Made by a program: the position numbers and the translations under genes. Positions 15,054 to 55,127 of a stretch of 64,000 nt of DNA are shown here, piece by piece. Origin of the DNA: Candidatus Moranbacteria bacterium GW2011_GWE2_35_2- (lineage in GTDB: Bacteria; Patescibacteriota; Minisyncoccia; Moranbacterales; UBA9337); the NCBI GenBank assembly GCA_000990585.1, contig LBQD01000002.1, positions 250,408 through 314,407 on the forward strand, written 5' to 3'. Under the pieces are notes generated by a model, which had not been told where the DNA came from, searched no databases, and saw only the letters and a list, made by a program, of their open reading frames with translations. The first letter of the stretch is position 1; each line of letters starts with the position of its first letter.

Positions 15054-18000
15054 TTGTCTCTAAGAAAAATCCGCGAAGCAAGGGGTATTGTGAGAGTTGT
15101 TTTTATGCTTAAAAGTGAAAAAACCCTGAGAGTTAAAGGGGAGTTTAGCAGTGCGTCTTCTCTTTCAAAGAGAAAATCTCCCAAGAAAGTCCCAATGGTT
15201 TCGTTGCCTAATTTGATTGAAGCGCAAACCGATTCTTATCGGTGGTTTTTGGAAAAAGGATTTCAGGAATTGTTGGATGAAATAAATCCGATTACTGATT
15301 TTGCAGGAAAGGATTTGGAAATATCTATTTCTGATTATTATCTTGATGAGCCGAAGTATGATGAAATTACGGCAAAAAACAAAAATATTTCTTTCGAAGC
15401 GCCGCTTCGAGCCAAGGCATCTTTGTTAATCAAAAGAACCGGGGAAATCAGAGAACAAGAAATATATCTTGGAGATTTTCCGATAATGACAGATCGTGGA
15501 ACATTCGTGGTAAATGGAGTAGAAAGAGTAGTTGTAAGTCAGCTTATTCGCAGTCCGGGAGTTTTTTTCACGATGAATTATCAAAAAGGAAAAAAACTTT
15601 TCGGAGCTAAAATTATTCCTAATCGCGGAGCATGGCTTGAGATTGATACGGATTTTGACGGAGTTATTTCGGTTAAAATAGACCGAAAAAGGAAAGTTCC
15701 AATAACGGCGTTGCTTCGGGCTTTTGGGTATGGAAGCGATGAAAAATTGCGCAAGATTTTTACTGATACCGATAACGGAGATACGAAGTATATTGAAGAA
15801 ACTATTAGTAAAGATATTTCAAAAAATCAAGGAGAAGGTTATAAGGAAGTATATAAAAGAATTCGTCCGGGTGATTTTGCTACCGAAGAAAATGCCAAAC
15901 AGATGATTGATTCGATGTTTTTTAATTTTGAAAGATATGATTTTGGGAGTGTCGGACGTTATCGCTTGAATCAACGTTTGCGTGTGGATAGAAAAAATAA
16001 TGAAGAAAGTCGCGTGCTTAATGTTGAGGATTTGATTTTGATCATTAAAGAAGTTATAAAGCTCAATAACGATCCTTTGGCACAAGCTGATGATATCGAC
16101 CATTTGGGAAATCGTAGAGTGCGTGGTGTTGGAGAGTTGGTACAAAACAAGCTTCGCGTAGGAATGGCAAGAATGATTCGAAATATCAAAGACCGAATGA
16201 GTACTTGTGATGTTATTACGGTTGTTCCCGGACAATTAGTAAATTCCAGACCGATTGCTGCCGCAATTAAAGAGTTTTTTTCTAGTTCCCAGTTGTCGCA
16301 GTTTATGGATCAAGTGAATCCTTTGGCTGAGTTGGAGCACAAAAGAAGACTTAGTGCGATGGGTCCCGGAGGACTTACTCGTGAAAGAGCTGGATTTGAG
16401 GTGCGTGATGTGCATCATTCTCATTATGGAAGAATTTGTCCAGTACAAACTCCTGAAGGTCCGAATATTGGCTTAGTTGGACATATGGCGACTTATGCTC
16501 GAATAAATAAATTCGGATTTTTGGAAACTCCTTATCGAAAAATAGAACAGGAAGTAGAAAATAAAGTTAAGATGCTGATAAATAAAATTTTGGGAGAAAA
16601 TATTTCCGGTGTTGCCAAAAAAGGAGAGAAAATTGATAATGTATTGGCCGAAAAAATCGTTAAATCAAAAAAAGACAAAGTTAAAGTATTTCCTTTTATT
16701 ACTGAGACAATAGAATATATAGATGCAACTGTTGAAGATCGTAAAATTATTGCGCATGCCGGGATTGAGATAGATAAAGACGGAAATATTATGGAAAGTA
16801 TGGTGGAAGCCAGAGTGAAAGGGCATCCGGAAATGATTGAAGTGGATAAATTGGATTATATTGATGTTTCTGCCAAGCAATGTATTTCTGTGGCAACTTC
16901 AATGATTCCGTTTTTGGAACACGATGATGCTAACCGCGCTCTTATGGGATCGAATATGCAACGTCAAGCTGTTTCTTGTGTTGTTCCGGAGGCACCGGTT
17001 GTGGGAACGGGCATTGAAGATAAAGCGGCGGCTGATTCCGGACAGGTAGTTATTTCCTACGGGGATGGGACGGTTATTGAGGTTGATGCGCGCCACATTA
17101 TTGTGAAGGAAAAAACGCCAGTTGGATCAAAAAAATCAAGTTTTAATCGAGAATATATTTTGCAAAGTTTCATTAAATCCAATGCGTTTACGAGTATGAA
17201 TCAAATTCCGCGCGTAAAAAAAGGAGATGATGTTCATAAAGGACAACTTTTGGCGGATGGAGCTTCTACTGATCATGGGGAATTGGCTTTGGGACAAAAT
17301 GTAATGGTGGCGTTTATTCCTTGGGAAGGTTATAACTTTGAAGACGCGATTATTGTTTCCGAAAGAGTGCTTCAGGCTGACAGATATAGCTCAATCCATA
17401 TTGAGGATTTTTCTGTTGAAGTTCGCGACACAAAGCTTGGACCGGAAGTAGTGACTCGCGATATTCCGAACATTGGAGAGGAACGTCTGAAAAATTTGGA
17501 TGAAACAGGAATAATTCGTATTGGAGCGGAAGTTTCTTCCGGAGATATTATGGTTGGAAAAATTACCCCGAAAGGTGAAGGAGATCTTACTGCTGAAGAA
17601 AGATTACTCAGAGCGATTTTCGGAGAAAAATCCAGAGATGTTAAAGATTCTTCACTTTATCTTCCTCATGGTGAGCATGGTAAGGTTGTGGATATTAAAA
17701 TATTTTCTCGTGAGCAAGGAGATAAGCTTTCAACCGGAGTAATTCAAAAAATACAGGTTTCCGTGGCACAACTTCGAAAAATTTCCGTTGGAGATAAATT
17801 GGCCGGACGACATGGAAATAAGGGTGTTATTTCCCGTATTGCTCCTGTGGAAGATATGCCGTATCTTCCGGATGGAAATCCTGTGGATATTATTTTGAAT
17901 CCGTTAGGAGTGGCCAGTCGTATGAATATCGGTCAGATTTTGGAAACTCACCTTGGGTGGGCGGCAAAGCAACTTGGATATAATATCGCAACGCCGGCTT

Positions 18001-24019: not shown

Positions 24020-24090
24020 GGTCCGATGGCGGAGTGGTTACGCAACGGTCTGCAAAACCGTGTACGCCGGTTCAATTCCGGCTCGGACCT
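24020..24090 (+). tRNA. tRNA-Cys (anticodon GCA)
   Basis: Acceptor stem GGTCCGA/TCGGACC, anticodon stem ACGGT/ACCGT with loop CTGCAAA, T-arm GCCGG-TTCAATT-CCGGC. No encoded CCA. Confidence 0.8.
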
Positions 24091-24103
24091 CGTTTTAAAA
24101 TAT

Positions 24104-24187
24104 GCCGCGGTGATGAAATTGGTATACATAGGAGACTTAAAATCTCCCGGTAGTGATACCGTGTGGGTTCGAGTCCCGCCCGCGGCA
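24104..24187 (+). tRNA. tRNA-Leu (anticodon TAA) with long variable arm
   Basis: Acceptor GCCGCGG/CCGCGGC, anticodon stem GGAGA/TCTCC with loop CTTAAAA, long variable arm, T-loop TTCGAGT. Confidence 0.8.
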
Positions 24188-25874: not shown

Positions 25875-26537
25875 TCACAAATTGAAAAATTCTTCAATTT
25901 TTTCTTGGTGTAAAAGTTTTTCCGCGGTTATAATCTCGATGTTTTTTTGGACATTGAAAAGTTCGGAAATAAATAGGATTTCATCTTCGCATTCATAAGG
26001 ATAAACCCATACGCTTTTTTGTATTTGGTAGAATCCCAATTCTTTGATTTTTCTTCTCAATGCTTCGCGCGCTTGGTGGTATCTTTTCGGTTTGGCTGGA
26101 ATATCAAAAATCAAGATTCGCCATTTTTTGTCCCATTTTTTCGGTTTTGCGATATCTAAAAGATCAAAGGAAAATTCTTTGATTCTTTTTTGTCCCTTAT
26201 TGGTTAAGCGTACTTCGTATTTTTCTTTTCCTATTTTAATAATCTCAATTAATTTTCTTTGTTTCAAGTTATTGAAAGCGGTTTGTATTTGTTTCTTGGA
26301 ATATTTCTTGTGTTTTTTGAATTTTCCCATTCCGGAAAGTATATTCGGAGCGGCTGCCGCGACAACGAAAAGGGGAGCGGCGAGAACGGCAGCCAGTAAA
26401 AATTTTCCGGCAGTGGCAGTAATGCCGTCATTATACAAAAATTTATCTTCAATTGTCTTTTTGATGTTAATTACTTCTTTTCTCTTTTTTGTTTGTTTTT
26501 TTTGCATGATTATATTTTTTGGTTTCCGATAATGCAA
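25875..26537 (-). CDS. Membrane-anchored PaaX-family-like transcriptional regulator (wHTH plus PaaX C-terminal domain)
   Basis: N-terminal Ala-rich hydrophobic helix. wHTH-like region EVRLTNKGQKRI. C-terminal WDKKWRILIFDIPAKPKRYHQAREALRRKIKELGFYQIQKSVWVYP matches the PaaX C-terminal pattern (W..YDIP...R..LR..L..LGFG.L..SVW..P). The track start is a TTG; an ATG 10 codons in (near 26507) is more likely. Confidence 0.5.
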   Translation of the reverse strand: MHYRKPKNIIMQKKQTKKRKEVINIKKTIEDKFLYNDGITATAGKFLLAAVLAAPLFVVAAAAPNILSGMGKFKKHKKYSKKQIQTAFNNLKQRKLIEIIKIGKEKYEVRLTNKGQKRIKEFSFDLLDIAKPKKWDKKWRILIFDIPAKPKRYHQAREALRRKIKELGFYQIQKSVWVYPYECEDEILFISELFNVQKNIEIITAEKLLHQEKIEEFFNL

Positions 26538-43875: not shown

Positions 43876-44325
43876 ATGGTAAAATTATTACATATGGAAA
43901 AAATTGTGATGTTTACTGATGGCGGGTCGCGGGGGAATCCCGGACCGGCGGCAGTCGGAGTTTGGATTGAAACTCTTGGGAAAAAATTTGGAGAATGTAT
44001 CGGAAAAAAAACCAACAACGAAGCGGAATACGAGGCGCTTATTTTGGGTTTGCAAAAAACAAAAGTACTGTTGGGAAAAACCAAAGCCAAGCAATCGGAA
44101 ATTGAATGTTTTTTGGATAGCGAATTAGTAGTTAAACAGCTCACGCACAAGTACAAATTAAAAGAAGAGCGGATTCAGAAATATTTTATTGAGATTTGGA
44201 ATTTGATGCTGGATTTTGGAAAAGTTTCATTTTTTCACGTGCCGAGAGAAAAAAATAAAATTGCCGATGAAATGGTTAATTTGGCACTGGATGAAAAAGA
44301 GAAACAAGTTTCTTTAAATTTCTAA
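43876..44325 (+). CDS. rnhA: Ribonuclease HI
   Basis: Motifs FTDGGSRGNPGPAA, NNEAEYEAL and the C-terminal D for RNase H. The probable start is an internal ATG (MEKIVMF..). Confidence 0.75.
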   Translation: MVKLLHMEKIVMFTDGGSRGNPGPAAVGVWIETLGKKFGECIGKKTNNEAEYEALILGLQKTKVLLGKTKAKQSEIECFLDSELVVKQLTHKYKLKEERIQKYFIEIWNLMLDFGKVSFFHVPREKNKIADEMVNLALDEKEKQVSLNF

Positions 44326-44362
44326 AATTATTTTAGGACTTATACGTTCAAGAAATATTCGT

Positions 44363-44488
44363 CCGGTTTTCCGAAAAAATATCTTTTTCTCCGACCCTTT
44401 CGAGGGACACGGGCAGCTACGAAAAAAACATTTTTTCGGAAAACCTAATGCTTTTTGTCGAAGCGCGTAAGCCGTATATTTAATATCA
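44363..44488 (+). ncRNA. Copy A of a duplicated ~120-nt structured 5' leader element (long outer stem GGTTTTCCGAAAAAA/TTTTTTCGGAAAACC enclosing a UUCG-capped hairpin)
   Basis: Direct comparison with 48569-48687 gives about 85% identity with structure-preserving differences. Lies immediately upstream of the efflux operon ATG. Confidence 0.45.
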
Positions 44489-45484
44489 ATGAGTAAAACA
44501 AAAAAAAGAATTATTTGGATTGTTGTTATTGCGATTATTGTCGGTGGATTTTGGTATTTTAAATCGAAGGGACCGGCAGTTGAATATATAACCGAAGAAG
44601 TGAAAAAAGGAAACATCGAAAGAACGGTTTCAGTTACTGGCGTGATGGTTTCGGAAAATCAAGTCGATTTGGCTTTTGAGCTTTCCGGACGCGTCGAAGC
44701 GGTGGATGTTTCCGTAGGAGATATTATTTCACAAGGACAGTTTATTGCCGGGTTGGATGATGGTATTTTAAATTCTCAACTGCAAGAAGTTCAACTGGCT
44801 TTGAATATTCAGATTGAAGCGGAAAAATTAGCCAGAAGAAATTGGAATTCTCTTAAGCCCGAAGAAAGACAGACGCAAAAAGATACCTCAGAAAAATCGC
44901 GCGCGGCGGTACGAACCGCAACAAATCAATTGGCGCGAGCTAAGCTTTATTCTCCAGTTGATGGAATTGTAACAGCGGTAAATATTAAAGAGGGAGAGGT
45001 GGCGACTGTCGGTGTGGCAGTTATTTCTGTGGCAAGTGAGGGTAATTTGGAAATTGAATCTAATATTCCTGAATCGGATATTGCTGAAGTGAAGCTGGGG
45101 CAAAAAGCCGAAGTAGTTTTTGATGCGCTTTCCAATGAGGATGTCTTTGAAGCTGAGGTGGTGGAAATTGATCCTGCTTCGACTGTTATCCAAGGAGTGG
45201 TATATTATCGGACAAAAATGAAATTAATTAGAGGTGATGAGAGAATAAAAATCGGAATGAGTCTGGATGCGGATATTTTGACGGCAAAAAAGGAAAATGT
45301 TTTGATGATTCCCGAGCGAGCGATCAAGACTGAAAACGGAGTTAAGACTGTGGAAATTTTGTTAGCTGAAAAAAATGAGACGGAAAAAGTTGAAATAGAA
45401 GTTGGTCTCAGTGGGGATGGAGGAATGATCGAAGTTTTTTCTGGATTGAAAGAGAAGGATAGAGTAGTGACGTTTGTGAAATAA
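44489..45484 (+). CDS. Efflux transporter periplasmic adaptor subunit (HlyD/MacA family)
   Basis: N-terminal TM anchor, coiled-coil hairpin, and a lipoyl/beta-barrel motif YSPVDGIV. Confidence 0.75.
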   Translation: MSKTKKRIIWIVVIAIIVGGFWYFKSKGPAVEYITEEVKKGNIERTVSVTGVMVSENQVDLAFELSGRVEAVDVSVGDIISQGQFIAGLDDGILNSQLQEVQLALNIQIEAEKLARRNWNSLKPEERQTQKDTSEKSRAAVRTATNQLARAKLYSPVDGIVTAVNIKEGEVATVGVAVISVASEGNLEIESNIPESDIAEVKLGQKAEVVFDALSNEDVFEAEVVEIDPASTVIQGVVYYRTKMKLIRGDERIKIGMSLDADILTAKKENVLMIPERAIKTENGVKTVEILLAEKNETEKVEIEVGLSGDGGMIEVFSGLKEKDRVVTFVK

Positions 45485-46223: not shown

Positions 46224-46310
46224 ATTTATAGTTTGAAATTTTTAATTTTGTAATTATTTAATTTTAAATTCAATTTAAATTTCGAATTAAAAATTATAAA
46301 TTAATCTGTT

Positions 46311-47558
46311 ATGCAGATTTTGAATCCCATTAAAATTTCATATAAGAATTTGGTGGCGGCGAAATTCCGCTCCTTTTTGACTATCTTGGGAATAATTATC
46401 GGAGTAGCTTCAGTAATTGTGATTATGGCGGTCGGGCTTTCAGCGCAGGAACTGATTTTGGATCAGATTCGCGGTATTGGATCGAATTTAATCGGGGTGC
46501 TTCCGGGTGCTTCGGAAGAAAACGGACCCCCTACAACAGCTTTGGGGATTTCCATAACGACGCTTACCTACGATGATTTGCAGGCAATGAAGGATCAAAG
46601 AAATATTCCTGAAGTCGAAGATGCTGCCGGATATGTTATGGGCACGAGTAAAATAAAATACGAGGAAGCGGATTTTACTTTTTCTTTTACTGGTACGACA
46701 GCGAGCTATGTTAATGTTGAGAACGCGGAAATGGAGGTGGGAAGATTTTTGAATGAAGAGGAGGAGATAAATCTTTCTCGTGTGGCGGTATTGGGAAGCG
46801 AGGTAGCGAAAGAAATATTTGGAACAGAAAATCCCTTGAATAAGAAAATAAAAATAGACGATAATAATTTTGCGGTTATTGGGGTTTTGAAAAGTCGGAG
46901 TAGTGCTGCTTTTGGAACATCCAGCCAGAATGATACAGTATATATCCCTCTGCGCACTGCGCAGAACTTGCTTTTGGGAATTAACCATCTTGGTTTTGCG
47001 AGATTAAAGGTAAGAGATAGTGATTTAATTCCGATTGCTATTGAGAATACAAAAATAACCTTGCGTGATCAGCATGATATTGATGATCCGGCTGACGATG
47101 ATTTTTCGGTGCGTGATCAAGCGGCGGCGGTTGAAACGATTTCTAATATAACGGACGCTCTGAGATATTTTCTTTTAGCCATCGGAACTATTTCGCTAGT
47201 TGTCGGAGGAGTGGGGATTATGAATGTGATGCTTATTGCGGTAAATCAAAGGATTCGCGAGGTGGGACTTCGTAAGGCGATTGGCGCTAGGAATATCGAT
47301 ATTGCTTTGCAATTTCTGGTAGAGTCGGCGACCATATCTTTTTTGGGCGGAGCGATTGGAATTATCATTGGGATTTTACTTTCTTTTGTAATTTCAATTG
47401 TCATTCAGGTATTGGGGTATACTTGGCCGTTTTTGATTTCCTTTTGGTCGGTAATTGTGGCGGCATTGGTTTCAATAGTAATCGGAATTATTTTCGGAAT
47501 GTATCCTGCCCGTAAAGCTTCGCAAGTTTCTCCAATGGAGGCGCTCCGATATGAATAG
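46311..47558 (+). CDS. ABC transporter permease, FtsX/MacB-like
   Basis: N-terminal TM, a large periplasmic domain, and a C-terminal 3-TM FtsX domain. Confidence 0.8.
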   Translation: MQILNPIKISYKNLVAAKFRSFLTILGIIIGVASVIVIMAVGLSAQELILDQIRGIGSNLIGVLPGASEENGPPTTALGISITTLTYDDLQAMKDQRNIPEVEDAAGYVMGTSKIKYEEADFTFSFTGTTASYVNVENAEMEVGRFLNEEEEINLSRVAVLGSEVAKEIFGTENPLNKKIKIDDNNFAVIGVLKSRSSAAFGTSSQNDTVYIPLRTAQNLLLGINHLGFARLKVRDSDLIPIAIENTKITLRDQHDIDDPADDDFSVRDQAAAVETISNITDALRYFLLAIGTISLVVGGVGIMNVMLIAVNQRIREVGLRKAIGARNIDIALQFLVESATISFLGGAIGIIIGILLSFVISIVIQVLGYTWPFLISFWSVIVAALVSIVIGIIFGMYPARKASQVSPMEALRYE

Positions 47559-48516: not shown

Positions 48517-48568
48517 TTTTTTTTGGTAATTTCAAAATATAGGATCTGCGCGATCATAAGATGCTTGA

Positions 48569-48687
48569 CCGGTTTTCCGAAAAATATCTTTTTCTCCGGT
48601 TCTTTCGAGGGACACGGACAGCTGCGAAAAAAACATTTTTCGGAAAACCTGACACTTTTTATTTAATTGCGTAAGTTATAAAATATT
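48569..48687 (+). ncRNA. Copy B of the duplicated ~120-nt structured leader element
   Basis: See copy A. Lies immediately upstream of the ATG at 48688. Confidence 0.45.
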
Positions 48688-49014
48688 ATGTTAAACAAAA
48701 TTGCAAAACATACAAATAAAATTTTGGTTTTTGTTATTAATATTCTCTTGGTAATTGTCGGATCTTTTATTATTAAAAACAGGGACAAGCATATTTCTAT
48801 TGAGGTGGATACGGAAAAGGATTTATCTCCGGTAAGTTCGGATATTTTGGCAGATCAAGAGAAAATTTCGGTGGACAGGGAAAATAAGCTTCGCGATCTC
48901 AACTCTACTCCGAAAGAAATTCAACAAAAAGAAGTCACTACAACTACTACGACTACAACCACTGTGCCAAAGCCAAGCAAATCTTCCAGTGATAAAACAA
49001 CTAAAAGTTCATAA
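48688..49014 (+). CDS. Small membrane-anchored protein with a poly-Thr tract
   Basis: N-terminal TM, a TTTTTTTTT run, and a Ser/Lys-rich tail. Confidence 0.4.
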   Translation: MLNKIAKHTNKILVFVINILLVIVGSFIIKNRDKHISIEVDTEKDLSPVSSDILADQEKISVDRENKLRDLNSTPKEIQQKEVTTTTTTTTTVPKPSKSSSDKTTKSS

Positions 49015-52197: not shown

Positions 52198-53661
52198 ATG
52201 ACTAAATCGAAAATATTTTTGATTTTATTTTTGAGTTTTTTGATAGGGATTTTTTCGGCTTCTTTTTGGGATGTCGGATTTTTGAATTATTTTCTTGCTT
52301 TGGCAGCGGTGATGGTTTTTGTTTTGGGATATCGGAATAGAATCGGGGTGGTGATTTTTTTTGCGATCCTGTTTTTTTCTTTCGGAATTTGGAAAGTGCA
52401 AAGCGCGCTGGAAAATGTGGCGCGTTTTCAATCGCAAGATGGAATAGAATTTTCCGGAATAGCGACGGTAGTTCGTGAGCCGGAAGAGAAAGAATTTTAT
52501 CAGGAAATCATTGTCAGACCGGAAGACGGAAAATATAAAATTTTGGTGCAAGGGGAAAAATATGCGAGTTGGGAATATGGCGAAGAGATGAATCTGAAAT
52601 GCATCTTGAAAAAACCGGAAAATTTTTCTCCGGATTTTGATTATCGGATGTATCTTGCCAAAGATAAAATATTTTATATTTGCAAAAAACCTCAAGTGAT
52701 GAAAAGTATGGAAGAAAATTCCGGTAATATTATTTTTGTCGGAATATTGAAGCTTAAGAATTTGATGGAGAAAAATGTAAATCGGGTTATTCCTGCTCCA
52801 GAGGCGGCTTTGGCAGATGGACTTTTATTTGGGGGGAATAATCGTCTGTCGAAAGAGTGGCAGGAAAAATTTTCCCGTACCGGCACTAGTCATATTGTGG
52901 CAGTGTCGGGATACAATGTGACGATTATTGCGGAATATTTGATTTGGCTTGGAATACTGCTTGGATTATGGCGACCAAGAGCTTTTTGGTTTGCCTTGGT
53001 CGGAATATTTTTATTTGTGGCAATGATTGGCTTTCCGTCTTCGGCGGTGCGTGCCGGAGTGATGGGTTCACTACTTCTTTGGGCGGTTAAAAATGGAAGG
53101 TTGGCGAATTCGTATAATGCGATTATTTTTTCTGCAGTGGTTATGCTTTTTCTCAATCCGTTTTTGCTTCGTTATGATATTGGATTCCAGCTTTCTTTTT
53201 TGGCGGCGTTGGGAATTATTGCGGCGGCTCCTTTTTGGGAAAAATATTTTGACAAAAAATTTGATGCGCTGGGAATTTTAGAAACGATATTGCTCACGCT
53301 GAGCGCGCAAATTTTTGTTTTGCCGATAATATTGTATAATTTTCATATGATGTCGTGGCTTTCCGTGGTTGTCAATGCTTTGATTCTTCCGATTGTGCCA
53401 CTCACAATGCTTTTGGTTTTTCTGTCTTCTGTTTTGGGTTTCGTGTTCTTTCCGCTTTCAGTGGCGTTGGGTTGGGCGGGATATGTTTTGCTTAGGTATG
53501 AAACCGAGGTGATTGATTTTTTCTCTAAAATAAATCAAGCAAGTTGGCAGACGGAAAAGTTCGGATGGAAGATGGTCGCGGGGTACTATTTTTTTCTGGG
53601 CGGGATTTTTTGGATTTGGAAAAGATATAAAAATAAATCGGGGAAATTATATGAAAAATAA
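52198..53661 (+). CDS. comEC: ComEC/Rec2 competence channel protein (N-terminal DUF4131 plus competence domain), lacking the metallo-beta-lactamase domain
   Basis: Polytopic membrane protein. Conserved competence-domain blocks (SGYNV.., LLFLS.., PLS..). Confidence 0.75.
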   Translation: MTKSKIFLILFLSFLIGIFSASFWDVGFLNYFLALAAVMVFVLGYRNRIGVVIFFAILFFSFGIWKVQSALENVARFQSQDGIEFSGIATVVREPEEKEFYQEIIVRPEDGKYKILVQGEKYASWEYGEEMNLKCILKKPENFSPDFDYRMYLAKDKIFYICKKPQVMKSMEENSGNIIFVGILKLKNLMEKNVNRVIPAPEAALADGLLFGGNNRLSKEWQEKFSRTGTSHIVAVSGYNVTIIAEYLIWLGILLGLWRPRAFWFALVGIFLFVAMIGFPSSAVRAGVMGSLLLWAVKNGRLANSYNAIIFSAVVMLFLNPFLLRYDIGFQLSFLAALGIIAAAPFWEKYFDKKFDALGILETILLTLSAQIFVLPIILYNFHMMSWLSVVVNALILPIVPLTMLLVFLSSVLGFVFFPLSVALGWAGYVLLRYETEVIDFFSKINQASWQTEKFGWKMVAGYYFFLGGIFWIWKRYKNKSGKLYEK

Positions 53662-54511
53662 AAAAGTTATATATTTTTTTGTCGGATTGGGACTGACTTT
53701 ATCCTTGCTTCTGGCGTCGATAATATTTTATTTGCAAAAATCAAATGAATTAAAAGTGGTTTTCCTCAATGTCGGTCAAGGGGATGCGATTTTGATTTCT
53801 CAGGGAAGTAGCCAAGTTTTGGTTGATAGCGGAAAAAGCGGAAAAATTGTTTTGGAAAAGCTGGGAAAATATATTCCTTTTTGGGATCGGCAAATTGAAG
53901 GGATTGTGATTACGCATCCGGATTATGATCATATCGCCGGCTTTGTGGATGTTTTGAAAAATTATGAAGTAAAAACGATCGTCAGAACGGGAGCAAAAAG
54001 TAATTCAAAGACTTTTGAGGCGCTCTCTGAAAAAATTTCCAAGGAAAATGCTCAAAACGTGGAAGCGCGAAGTGGAGTGAAAATGAAATTTTCTCGCGGA
54101 GCGCAGTTGGAGGTAAAATACCCAATTTTTTCCAAGGATATTTTTTCCAAAAATACCAATGATGAAAGTGTCGTGGTTGGGGTTGATTTTGGAGAGAGTA
54201 GTTTTCTTTTGACGGGGGATCTTCCGATGGAAAAAGAGAGCGAGTTGATTTCCGCCACCAAAAATATTAGCGCGAAAGTTTTGAAGGTGGCGCATCATGG
54301 ATCTAAATATTCAACTGGCGATGAATTTCTGAAAATGGTCAATCCGTCGGAAGCGATTATTTCGGTGGGAAAAAACAACTATGGACATCCGACGCCCGAG
54401 GTGGTAGAAAGAATGGAGAGGCATGGAATAAAAATAATGCGAACGGATCAAGTAGGGGATATCGCGTATCGATGCAATGAGAAAAGTTGTGTTTTTAGTT
54501 CAGAGAGGTAA
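53651..54511 (+). CDS. ComEC-type metallo-beta-lactamase-fold domain protein, encoded separately with its own TM anchor
   Basis: MBL motifs LNVGQGDAILI, THPDYDHIAG and VAHHGS. Overlaps the comEC N-part by 11 nt. Confidence 0.75.
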   Translation: MKNKKVIYFFVGLGLTLSLLLASIIFYLQKSNELKVVFLNVGQGDAILISQGSSQVLVDSGKSGKIVLEKLGKYIPFWDRQIEGIVITHPDYDHIAGFVDVLKNYEVKTIVRTGAKSNSKTFEALSEKISKENAQNVEARSGVKMKFSRGAQLEVKYPIFSKDIFSKNTNDESVVVGVDFGESSFLLTGDLPMEKESELISATKNISAKVLKVAHHGSKYSTGDEFLKMVNPSEAIISVGKNNYGHPTPEVVERMERHGIKIMRTDQVGDIAYRCNEKSCVFSSER

Positions 54512-55127
54512 TTTTTTTATGAAAATATTTCAAAAATTGAAAATAAAATGGGATCGAAAATTGTTGCGCTATTTTTTTGTGTTGGCGGCGGTTTTTGGTT
54601 TTTCAATTTGGCAGGGGTATTATTCCGCCAAGCAAAATACGGAAGAAGCGAATTTGATTGGCAAAGAACTTTCTTCCCAATTGGAATTTTTGAAAAACAC
54701 AAATTCATTCGCGCTTTTTCTGATTATTTTTTTGAATAATTATGTGAAATCTTTGGCTGTCCTTTTGATGGGATCTTTTTTCGGGGTCGTTCCTTTTTTG
54801 ATGATTTGGTTTAATGGATCGATTTTGGGAATATTGGTTTTTGTTTCAATGGCGGGGTTGGGCGGAGTTGCCAGTCTGAGCGGAGCGGAAATTTTTTGGT
54901 CGCTTTTTCCGCATGGAGTTTTCGAGGTTCCAGCGTTTTTGCTTGCTGGAGCGTGCGGAGTTTGGCTTGGGGAAAAGTTTTGGCGCAAGATTAGGCACAA
55001 AGAAGTATTTAAACCGAAGTTGAATTATTGTTTGGATATTTTTATAAAAATAGTGACCCCACTACTTTTCTTGGCGGCACTTATTGAGGTTTTTGCGACG
55101 CCGGTAATTGCATTTTTGCTTGGGTAG
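54477..55127 (+). CDS. SpoIIM/DUF95-family membrane protein
   Basis: Motif FPHGVFEVPAFLLAG (the HG.xExPA signature of DUF95/SpoIIM). The likely start is an internal ATG (MKIFQKL, about 54519). Confidence 0.5.
   Translation: MRKVVFLVQRGNFFMKIFQKLKIKWDRKLLRYFFVLAAVFGFSIWQGYYSAKQNTEEANLIGKELSSQLEFLKNTNSFALFLIIFLNNYVKSLAVLLMGSFFGVVPFLMIWFNGSILGILVFVSMAGLGGVASLSGAEIFWSLFPHGVFEVPAFLLAGACGVWLGEKFWRKIRHKEVFKPKLNYCLDIFIKIVTPLLFLAALIEVFATPVIAFLLG

What the first reader, a model, noticed from the sequence alone, without database searches (positions are those of the whole stretch)
44363..44488. Duplicated ~120-nt structured leader element (second copy at 48569-48687) preceding an efflux operon and an unrelated small membrane protein gene
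Both copies run from CCGGTTTTCCG to the ATG with about 85% identity. They share a 15-bp outer stem (GGUUUUCCGAAAAAA/UUUUUUCGGAAAACC) and an inner hairpin CCG-A-CCCU-UUCG-AGGG-ACA-CGG whose substitutions in copy B (UUCU for CCCU) keep pairing via G-U. A U5 tract follows the outer stem. The downstream coding sequences are unrelated, so the element itself is the conserved unit. It may be a cis-regulatory RNA (riboswitch or attenuator), plausibly efflux-related, or a small mobile or duplicated promoter-leader cassette.
Basis: seen in the sequence. Interest (0 to 1): 0.6.

Follow-up and report, generated by a model that had tools for sequence, protein, structure and literature searches.

The report
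Dispersed palindromic repeat element in Moranbacteria
The two look-alike "leaders" are copies of a roughly 150-base hairpin-forming repeat that sits between unrelated genes in a small group of Moranbacteria genomes and is present or absent at the same spot in close relatives, so it behaves like a small mobile or duplicated DNA element and not like a metabolite-sensing riboswitch.

Summary
Copies at 44330-44482 and 48537-48685 are 86% identical, and about 91% in the core. Each forms a long hairpin, and these are the second and third longest inverted repeats in the window.

The unit is larger than reported. It is an imperfect palindrome of about 150 nt that fills the whole intergenic spacer.

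I found at least 12 further insertion sites in related Candidatus Moranbacteria genomes. They sit next to unrelated genes: murF, rsmI, metG, groEL, a perM-like gene, and inside the same efflux operon.

Four orthologous sites are filled in some relatives and empty in others. The window itself has a 7-nt spacer where a relative at 84-87% protein identity carries the element. One copy is decayed, and two assemblies break inside the element.

There is no Rfam family, no canonical terminator, no consensus promoter, and no functional coherence among the downstream genes.

Best reading: a new, low-copy, narrow-range family of MITE/REPIN-like intergenic palindromic repeats. A riboswitch or efflux-specific leader is rejected.

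Some observations remain open. The 80-nt core is far better conserved than synonymous sites (about 96% against 69-78%). A divergent copy keeps perfect 31-bp arms. Eight of nine copies between co-directional genes point the same way as those genes. A host-level or strand-specific role therefore cannot be excluded.

The parts
44330..44482 (+). Copy A, full element. It fills the spacer between the RNase H gene (stop at 44323-44325) and the HlyD-type adaptor gene (ATG at 44489).
   Evidence: nhmmer with the 13-copy profile gives E=4e-45.
44330..44364 (+). Copy A, 5' outer arm: a degenerate terminal inverted repeat of the form TTAGGAYTTRYRCG...AAnAAT.
   Evidence: It aligns with the reverse complement of 44446-44482. 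The motif is shared by the other copies.
44365..44389 (+). Copy A, 5' arm of the main stem (GGTTTTCCGAAAAAATATCTTTTTC).
   Evidence: Inverted repeat I3: 25 nt, 92% complementary. 95% of cells are paired across 13 copies.
44390..44413 (+). Copy A, apical hairpin (UCCG-A-CCCU-UUCG-AGGG-ACA-CGGG). This part varies between copies and tolerates a 39-nt insertion in L117.
44414..44420 (+). Copy A, conserved one-sided bulge CAGCTAC. Other copies carry the variants CAGCTGC or CAAAAGC. This bulge gives the element its polarity.
   Evidence: Alignment A2.
44421..44445 (+). Copy A, 3' arm of the main stem.
44446..44482 (+). Copy A, 3' outer arm (..GCGTAAGCCGTATATTTA). It ends 6 nt before the ATG.
48537..48685 (+). 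Copy B, full element, between a 97-aa ORF (ends 48516) and a 108-aa membrane-protein gene (ATG at 48688).
   Evidence: nhmmer E=8e-39. The orthologous copy in L117 is at 15580-15770.
48571..48594 (+). Copy B, 5' arm of the main stem.
   Evidence: Inverted repeat I2.
48626..48649 (+). Copy B, 3' arm of the main stem.
   Evidence: Inverted repeat I2.
54509..54521 (+). Empty site C in the window: stop TAA, then TTTTTTT, then ATG. The orthologous spacer in relative L100 (same contig as L117) is about 183 nt and holds a full copy.
   Evidence: tblastn finds 84-87% identity for the flanking ComEC and MBL genes. The two sequences are compared side by side.
46224..46310 (+). Site D in the window (ABC ATPase | MacB permease spacer). 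No element is present here. L117 has a full copy, L116 a decayed copy, and L119 and L121 have a 20-nt spacer.

Best explanation
The two 'leaders' are members of a small family of dispersed, non-coding, hairpin-forming repeats of about 150 nt. The family occurs in a narrow clade of Candidatus Moranbacteria (Patescibacteria/CPR) and is MITE/REPIN-like.

Each copy has three layers:
- An outer pair of degenerate terminal inverted repeats.
- A highly conserved AT-rich main stem of 25-31 bp.
- A variable apical hairpin, with a conserved one-sided bulge (CAGCTRC) that gives the element its polarity.

Shown: copies have been duplicated into the very short intergenic spacers of these reduced genomes, where they fill the gap from the upstream stop codon to the downstream start codon. 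Copies are then inherited vertically. They can be lost or can decay. Their central parts can be homogenised between copies in one genome.

Inferred: the element spread by a copy-and-insert mechanism supplied in trans by a transposase or HUH-type enzyme that I did not identify, or by recombination. Where it lies inside an operon it is co-transcribed, and it then forms a long RNA hairpin that could affect processing or stability.

It is not a ligand-sensing leader of the efflux operon.
For: (1) Dispersal.
- nhmmer and pattern searches find copies at 12 or more independent sites in related genomes, next to unrelated genes.
- L032 has 4 copies in 8 kb. The L117/L100 contig has 3 copies in 27 kb.

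(2) Presence and absence at orthologous sites.
- Site C is empty in the window (7-nt spacer) and filled in L100.
- Site A is filled in the window, L116 and L121. It is empty in L119 (54-nt spacer), and in L117 a different sequence occupies it.
- Site D is filled in L117, decayed in L116 (the 5' arm was lost between AAAAACATT direct repeats), empty in L119 and L121, and absent from the window.
- Site B is filled in both the window and L117.

(3) Two assemblies break at or inside the element, which is typical of repeats. These are the start of L121 and the start of L006.

(4) Palindrome architecture.
- Each copy folds into one long hairpin on either strand, and neither strand is consistently better.
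- Wobble-compatible mismatches number 62 on the + strand and 59 on the - strand.
- The outer arms show no within-copy co-evolution (self 5.0 against cross 5.7, p=0.84). This fits decaying terminal repeats better than an RNA stem under selection.

(5) No alternative identity turned up.
- No Rfam hit.
- No consensus promoter or terminator inside the element.
- No match in phage or plasmid collections or in viral contigs.

(6) The 39-nt apical insertion is 100% identical in two L117 copies whose outer parts are site-specific. This indicates exchange between copies.
Against: - No target-site duplication could be defined from the filled-versus-empty comparisons.
- No autonomous partner or transposase was found. 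There is none in window 1-34 kb or in the annotated related loci.
- Copy number appears low. The window has 2 copies in 64 kb, and the scan of 185,579 species genomes found only 4 genomes with an exact-arm copy.
- Unlike classical MITEs, the centre is the best conserved part and the termini are the worst. Core identity between orthologous copies is about 96% (3 differences in 81 nt, read by eye), and the whole element is 87% identical. Third codon positions of the flanking genes are 68-78% identical.
- A divergent copy keeps perfect 31-bp arms with compensated changes.
- Eight of nine copies between co-directional genes share the gene orientation.

The last three points suggest constraint or a strand-specific process beyond simple selfish decay.
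Confidence: 0.68

Rival explanations
1. A host-recruited structural module. The conserved hairpin, as RNA in the gene-sense transcript or as DNA, serves the host at many intergenic junctions. Possible roles are an RNase III-type processing or mRNA-stabilising hairpin between cistrons, an insulator, or the carrier of an outward promoter for (near-)leaderless downstream genes. This overlaps with the best explanation, since the element could be a domesticated repeat.
For: - The core is much more conserved than neutral sites. The whole element is 87% identical and the core about 96%, against 68-78% at third codon positions.
- Compensated changes occur in the main stem: 6 pairs, 0 of 500 shuffles reached this.
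- L032d keeps perfect 31-bp arms although it has diverged in sequence.
- Eight of nine co-directional contexts share the gene orientation.
- In most copies the 3' end carries a TA-rich, -10-like box 3-10 nt before the ATG.
- The genome hardly uses Shine-Dalgarno sequences (4 of 45 genes).
Against: - The element is absent from orthologous junctions in close relatives with no visible replacement.
- One copy is decayed.
- One copy is inverted relative to both neighbouring genes (L112).
- Two copies sit behind intrinsic terminators.
- The promoter scan finds no consensus promoter in the element.
- No strand is favoured by G-U statistics.
Confidence: 0.2
2. A riboswitch or attenuator leader that controls the efflux operon and the small membrane protein.
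For: - Both window copies lie directly upstream of genes for membrane or efflux proteins.
- The fold is stable.
- A U5 tract is present in these two copies.
Against: - No Rfam match. The best cis-regulatory hit is the idnO motif at E=1.6 and 18 bits against a gathering score of 100. That motif is specific to the Streptococcus manX-idnO spacer.
- Downstream genes across copies are unrelated.
- The U-tract is not conserved.
- The apical part, where a ligand pocket would be expected, is the variable part and accepts a 39-nt insertion.
- The orthologous efflux operon in L119 lacks the element, and in L117 a different sequence occupies that spacer.
Confidence: 0.03
3. An intrinsic, possibly bidirectional, transcription terminator family for the upstream genes.
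For: It is a hairpin located after the stop codon of a co-directional upstream gene in most copies.
Against: - The terminator scan finds none at either copy.
- The stem is AT-rich, with a 30-70 nt apical domain.
- No U-tract adjoins the stem, and the distant one is not conserved.
- L022 and L110 already have a canonical GC-rich terminator just upstream of the element.
- Copies sit inside operons of essential genes: ftsI|murF, rsmI|metG, and ABC ATPase|permease.
- L032a lies between divergent genes.
Confidence: 0.05

Closest known systems
MITEs derived from insertion sequences (for example Correia/NEMIS elements of Neisseria, and RUP of Streptococcus pneumoniae)
   Same: - Non-coding and 100-200 nt long, with terminal inverted repeats.
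- Whole-element hairpin potential.
- Dispersed intergenic copies, often co-transcribed with neighbouring genes.
- Filled and empty sites between related strains.
- Assembly breaks at copies.
   Different: - No target-site duplication could be shown, and no parent IS is known.
- Copy number is low.
- The centre, not the termini, is the best conserved part.
- Orientation is biased with respect to neighbouring genes.
REP / REPIN elements mobilised by RAYT (Y1 HUH) transposases, and ERIC/IRU imperfect palindromes of enterobacteria
   Same: - Intergenic imperfect palindromes that form long hairpins.
- Vertical persistence with better-than-neutral conservation.
- A conserved asymmetric feature. The bulge reads CGTAGCTG on the - strand, so it contains a GTAG next to the apical hairpin, as in REP.
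   Different: - GTAG is not invariant. GCAG and GCTTTTG variants exist.
- No RAYT gene was looked for, and none could have been found with these tools.
- The element is AT-rich and about 150 nt long, not a GC-rich doublet of 35-nt units.
- There are few copies per genome.
Rickettsia palindromic elements (RPE)
   Same: A family of 100-150 nt palindromic repeats in a reduced genome of a host-dependent bacterium, persisting over long periods.
   Different: RPEs are frequently inserted in frame inside coding genes. All copies seen here are intergenic.
Integron attC sites (for example VCRs)
   Same: - Imperfect palindromes of 60-140 nt between genes, mostly in one orientation.
- Extrahelical bases and a terminal structure of variable length.
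   Different: - No RYYYAAC/GTTRRRY core sites at the ends (read).
- The neighbouring genes are syntenic housekeeping genes, not cassettes.
- The element alone, not gene plus element, is gained or lost.
idnO ncRNA motif (Rfam RF04318)
   Same: A weak whole-length cmscan alignment with a similar AU-rich long stem.
   Different: - 18 bits against a gathering score of 100, at E=1.6.
- The idnO motif is tied to the manX-idnO spacer of Streptococcus and Erysipelotrichaceae (PMC11109978).
- I treat the match as chance.

Membership tests
MITE (non-autonomous IS derivative) | Short (<~300 bp) and non-coding | tested here: met
   The elements are 148-191 nt long, and the only ORFs crossing them are spurious short ones.
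MITE (non-autonomous IS derivative) | Terminal inverted repeats | tested here: met
   The 5' and 3' flanks align as reverse complements in every copy. In L055 about 20 of 23 positions match (AGGATTYACGCRWTTRAATAA, read).
MITE (non-autonomous IS derivative) | Multiple dispersed copies, with filled and empty orthologous sites | tested here: met
   At least 12 sites were found, and four orthologous sites vary among relatives.
MITE (non-autonomous IS derivative) | Target-site duplication flanking the element | tested here: inconclusive
   The junctions at sites C and D are AT-rich and diverged. TA or TAA is possible but not demonstrable.
MITE (non-autonomous IS derivative) | A related autonomous IS with matching termini | not testable with these tools
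   No transposase occurs in the window ORFs scanned or in the related loci, and no partial profile hits flank an ORF. Whole genomes could not be scanned.
REP/REPIN-RAYT system | A conserved GTAG next to an imperfect hairpin, and a RAYT gene flanked by the repeats | tested here: inconclusive
   GTAG is present on the - strand in most copies but is replaced by GCAG or GCTTTTG in 5 of 14. A RAYT gene was not searchable.
Riboswitch / cis-regulatory leader | Match to a described RNA family | tested here: not met
   Only tRNAs reach the gathering score. Nothing below E=0.1 is found in the region, apart from hairpin-shaped miRNA models.
Riboswitch / cis-regulatory leader | Consistent association with a functionally coherent gene set, in the 5' UTR | tested here: not met
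   The downstream genes are an hlyD-type adaptor, a 108-aa membrane protein, a macB permease, murF, rsmI, metG, groEL and a perM-like gene. Two copies lie behind terminators, two lie between convergent genes, and one is inverted.
Riboswitch / cis-regulatory leader | A conserved ligand-binding core with covarying stems | tested here: inconclusive
   The main stem shows some compensated changes. However, the apical domain is the variable part, and no strand is preferred.
Intrinsic terminator | A GC-rich stem directly followed by a U-tract | tested here: not met
   The scan finds none at the copies. The U5 tract is 7-8 nt away and is not conserved.
Integron attC | R''/R' core sites (RYYYAAC ... 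GTTRRRY) and mobility at the cassette level | tested here: not met
   No such cores are found at the element ends. The element alone is gained or lost between syntenic housekeeping genes.

The most novel reading that the evidence does not exclude
The element is not just selfish DNA. It is a selectively maintained, polar hairpin module that Shine-Dalgarno-poor Moranbacteria use to punctuate transcription units. One version is an RNase III-type processing or stabilising site that also carries an outward promoter for (near-)leaderless downstream genes. Another version is the substrate of a strand-specific single-stranded-DNA recombinase whose insertion polarity follows replication. Either way it would be the first described cis-acting repeat system of the candidate phyla radiation.
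Probability: 0.2. Interest if true: 0.55.

Novelty: new member of a known kind. Interest (0 to 1): 0.3.

Why it matters
CPR/Patescibacteria genomes are small and tightly packed, and they are usually described as poor in repeats and mobile DNA. I found no paper describing MITE- or REP-like repeats in them.

A conserved 150-nt hairpin that lands exactly between stop and start codons, sometimes inside essential operons (ftsI|murF, rsmI|metG, an ABC efflux operon), matters in three ways:
- It is a practical marker of strain-level genome dynamics.
- It is a likely cause of assembly breaks.
- It is a candidate modulator of operon expression in organisms whose gene regulation is almost unknown.

It also illustrates that a structured, duplicated 5' "leader" is not necessarily a riboswitch.

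Tried and rejected
- **Rfam.** I searched at gathering thresholds over the whole window and at E<10 over the locus. Only tRNAs and chance hairpin hits came up. I followed the weak idnO hit into the literature and rejected it.
- **Exact-arm pattern scan of 185,579 species genomes.** Of 90 hits, 86 were unrelated palindromes.
- **Relaxed core pattern scan of the metagenome collection.** This gave 12 hits, of which 5 were real and 2 were new sites.
- **Viral contigs and the phage and plasmid collections.** No family members were found.
- **Promoter and terminator consensus scans.** Nothing was found inside the element.
- **Strand assignment by G-U against A-C mismatch counts.** There was no bias: 62 against 59.
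- **Test for within-copy co-evolution of the outer arms.** The result was negative.
- **Search for a target-site duplication** from the filled and empty site pairs. This was inconclusive.
- **Search for a transposase** among ORFs in window 1-34 kb. None was found.
- **Integron attC reading.** Rejected because core sites are missing and the flanking genes are housekeeping genes.
- **6S-RNA-like or other sRNA gene reading.** Considered and set aside, because the element occurs in several copies at variable sites.
- **L121 copy A.** It is 96% identical to the window copy although the adjacent gene is only about 77% identical in nucleotides. The contig starts at the element, so I could not tell recent transfer from a chimeric contig end.

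Full report
**1. The observation**

MAFFT gives 86% mean column identity over 173 columns, with a nearly identical core.

- In copy A the main stem is GGTTTTCCGAAAAAAT (44365-44380) paired with ATTTTTTCGGAAAACC (44430-44445). Copy B is one A:T pair shorter.
- The inverted-repeat scan extends the arms to 25 nt (92% complementary) in copy A and 29 nt (86%) in copy B. It ranks them second and third longest of 33 pairs in the window.
- The + strand folds at -31.4 and -31.7 kcal/mol (z = -3.6 and -4.9). The - strand folds better, at -38.4 and -34.7 kcal/mol, because several A-C oppositions become G-U.
- The inner hairpin and its G-U-compatible variant in copy B are as described.
- A profile search finds only these two copies in the 64-kb window.

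**2. The unit is bigger than reported**

Comparison with homologues shows about 35 nt more upstream and about 35 nt more downstream. These extra segments are degenerate inverted repeats of one another: TTAGGAYTTRCGC..TTnAAnAAT on the left, and ..GCGTRAAKYCnTA on the right.

- The element therefore runs from 44330 to 44482 and from 48537 to 48685.
- It is one imperfect palindrome of about 150 nt that folds into a single long hairpin. L055, for example, reaches -63 kcal/mol.
- It fills the whole spacer from the upstream stop codon to within 3-10 nt of the downstream ATG in most copies.

**3. Source and neighbours**

The window is from a Rifle aquifer Candidatus Moranbacteria genome (GCA_000989885.1, LBSZ01000001.1).

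- Copy A lies between an RNase H gene and a three-gene operon: HlyD-type adaptor, ABC ATPase, and MacB/FtsX permease.
- Copy B lies between a 97-aa ORF and a 108-aa membrane-protein gene. Downstream of that come a 130-aa ORF, ApbE and a ferric reductase.
- Thirteen assemblies of the same species carry identical copies.

**4. Relatives elsewhere**

An exact-arm pattern scan of 185,579 species genomes returned 90 palindromes, of which four are true homologues: L055, L032, L100 and L022. A relaxed core pattern on the metagenome collection added L110 and L112/L113. Fetching orthologues of the HlyD gene added L116, L117, L119 and L121.

An nhmmer profile then found further copies in these loci. L032 has four in 8 kb, and the L117/L100 contig has three in 27 kb.

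The contexts are as follows:

| Locus | Context (| marks the element) |
|---|---|
| L055 | ftsI-like PBP | murF |
| L032 | 422-aa gene | perM-like gene; divergent 152-aa gene | rsmI; rsmI | metG; and a divergent copy before a 507-aa gene |
| L022 | ychF, terminator | sigma-70 promoter, CIRCE, groEL |
| L100 | ComEC-MBL | membrane protein |
| L117 | ABC ATPase | MacB permease, inside the efflux operon |
| L110 | between convergent genes, behind a terminator |
| L112 | between two co-directional genes, in the opposite orientation |

There is no functional theme among these genes.

**5. Presence and absence at orthologous sites**

- **Site C.** The ComEC and MBL genes of L100 are 84-87% identical in protein to window 52327-54508. 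The window has TAA-TTTTTTT-ATG at 54509-54521, whereas L100 has about 183 nt that contain a full copy.
- **Site A.** It is filled in the window, in L116 (HlyD 88% identical) and in L121. It is empty in L119 (54-nt spacer), and in L117 a different hairpin-rich sequence occupies it.
- **Site D.** L117 has a full copy. L116 has a copy that lost its 5' arm between AAAAACATT direct repeats. L119 and L121 have a 20-nt spacer. The window has an unrelated 87-nt AT-rich spacer.
- **Site B.** It is filled in the window and in L117.

Two contigs start at or inside the element: L121 and L006. Several dispersed copies of a non-coding sequence, patchy occupancy and a decayed copy all require a duplicative, insertion-like history.

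**6. What argues against a plain selfish MITE**

- Orthologous copies are 87% identical. This holds for window A against L116A and for window B against L117B. Third codon positions of the flanking genes are 68-78% identical. The 81-nt core of A against L116A differs at 3 positions.
- The main stem is 95% paired across 13 copies. Six pairs changed on both sides, and 0 of 500 shuffles reached this. Some of these come from register shifts in the two most divergent copies.
- The divergent copy L032d keeps perfect 31-bp arms, with CCG/CGG replaced by CTG/CAG.
- Against structural selection, the outer arms show no within-copy co-evolution (self 5.0, cross 5.7, p=0.84). Wobble-type mismatches are equally frequent for the two strands, at 62 and 59.
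- The 39-nt apical insertion is identical in the two L117 copies but absent from the orthologous window copy B. This points to exchange between copies.
- Eight of nine copies between co-directional genes share the gene orientation, and L112 is the exception. This could reflect selection on the transcript or a strand-specific insertion mechanism.

**7. Expression signals**

- Consensus scans find no sigma-70 promoter or intrinsic terminator in either copy.
- The U5 tract is not conserved.
- The genome almost lacks Shine-Dalgarno motifs (4 of 45 genes), so their absence next to the element carries no information.
- A TA-rich, -10-like box a few nucleotides before the ATG is common at the 3' end of the element. 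In DNA with 37% G+C this is weak evidence.

**8. Known families**

- No Rfam family matches. The idnO hit (18 bits, E=1.6) belongs to a riboswitch candidate from the Streptococcus manX-idnO spacer.
- There is no match in phage, plasmid or viral collections.
- No transposase is found in the window ORFs I scanned or in the related loci.
- I found no paper on MITE- or REP-like repeats in the CPR.

**9. Verdict**

The sequence observation is confirmed and extended. The riboswitch or efflux-leader reading is rejected.

I file the element as a new family of MITE/REPIN-like intergenic palindromic repeats restricted to a narrow Moranbacteria clade (confidence about 0.7). About 0.2 goes to the view that the conserved polar hairpin has been recruited for a host function at gene junctions. 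The finding is ordinary in kind and moderately interesting for CPR genome biology.

Noticed in passing
L100 / L117 (CAZRJL010000005.1) and L055 (CAZSCV010000007.1): Both MAGs are titled 'uncultured Bdellovibrionales bacterium'. The L100/L117 contig is syntenic with the Moranbacteria window and 84-88% identical to it in protein, at 37-38% G+C. The taxonomic label therefore looks wrong.
   Followed up: partly
L117:9860-9990 (RNase H | HlyD spacer): Where the window has copy A, this relative has a different GC-rich hairpin repeat (GTCATTCCCGCGGAGGCGGGAATGAC followed by further GGGAATGACAA units). A second GTCATTCCCGC occurrence lies on the opposite strand about 70 bases upstream, inside the RNase H gene, and a third on the same contig about 6.3 kb downstream. 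This may be another small repeat family.
   Followed up: partly
L117:11843-11881 and L117:15653-15691: A 39-nt hairpin-forming insertion (CCCGCCTGCAACGCTTCGCATAGCGATACGGACAGGGGG) sits at the same apical position in two copies of the element and is 100% identical in both. It is either a nested mini-insertion or gene conversion between copies.
   Followed up: partly
window, all gene starts (for example 3025, 52198, 58337): Only 4 of 45 crude gene calls have a Shine-Dalgarno-like motif. Several have a TATAAT-like box 3-7 nt before the ATG. This suggests widespread leaderless or SD-independent initiation in this genome.
   Followed up: partly
window:25776-25809 and window:26546-26686: Operator-like palindromes (TAATCAAnnTATGGCAA/TTGC...TTGATTA) flank a PaaX-like regulator gene at 25875-26507 (- strand). 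One of them is the longest inverted repeat in the window.
   Followed up: no
L022:2830-2900: There is a textbook sigma-70 promoter (TTGACT-17-TAGAAT) followed by a CIRCE operator (TTAGCAGTC-N9-GAGTGCTAA) upstream of groEL, just downstream of the element copy.
   Followed up: no
L002, L003, L005 (MacB permease gene, equivalent to window 46311-47558): In several assemblies of the same species the 415-aa MacB/FtsX permease is called as two fragments (for example 326 + 112 aa). This is either a frameshifted allele or an assembly error.
   Followed up: no
L121:1-160 compared with window:44331-44488: Copy A in L121 is 96% identical to the window copy, although the adjacent HlyD gene is only about 77% identical in nucleotides. 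The close relative L119 lacks the element at this site. The contig starts exactly at the element, so this is either recent transfer or a chimeric contig end.
   Followed up: partly
window:46224-46310: An 87-nt, extremely AT-rich spacer with its own inverted repeat (46229-46247 / 46285-46303) lies between the ABC ATPase and permease genes. Relatives L119 and L121 have 20 nt at this position.
   Followed up: no
window:7750-10233 and window:22204-22926: The window encodes a TrwB/VirD4-like coupling-protein homologue (827 aa) and a LexA-like repressor. Two tRNA genes lie at 24020-24187.
   Followed up: no
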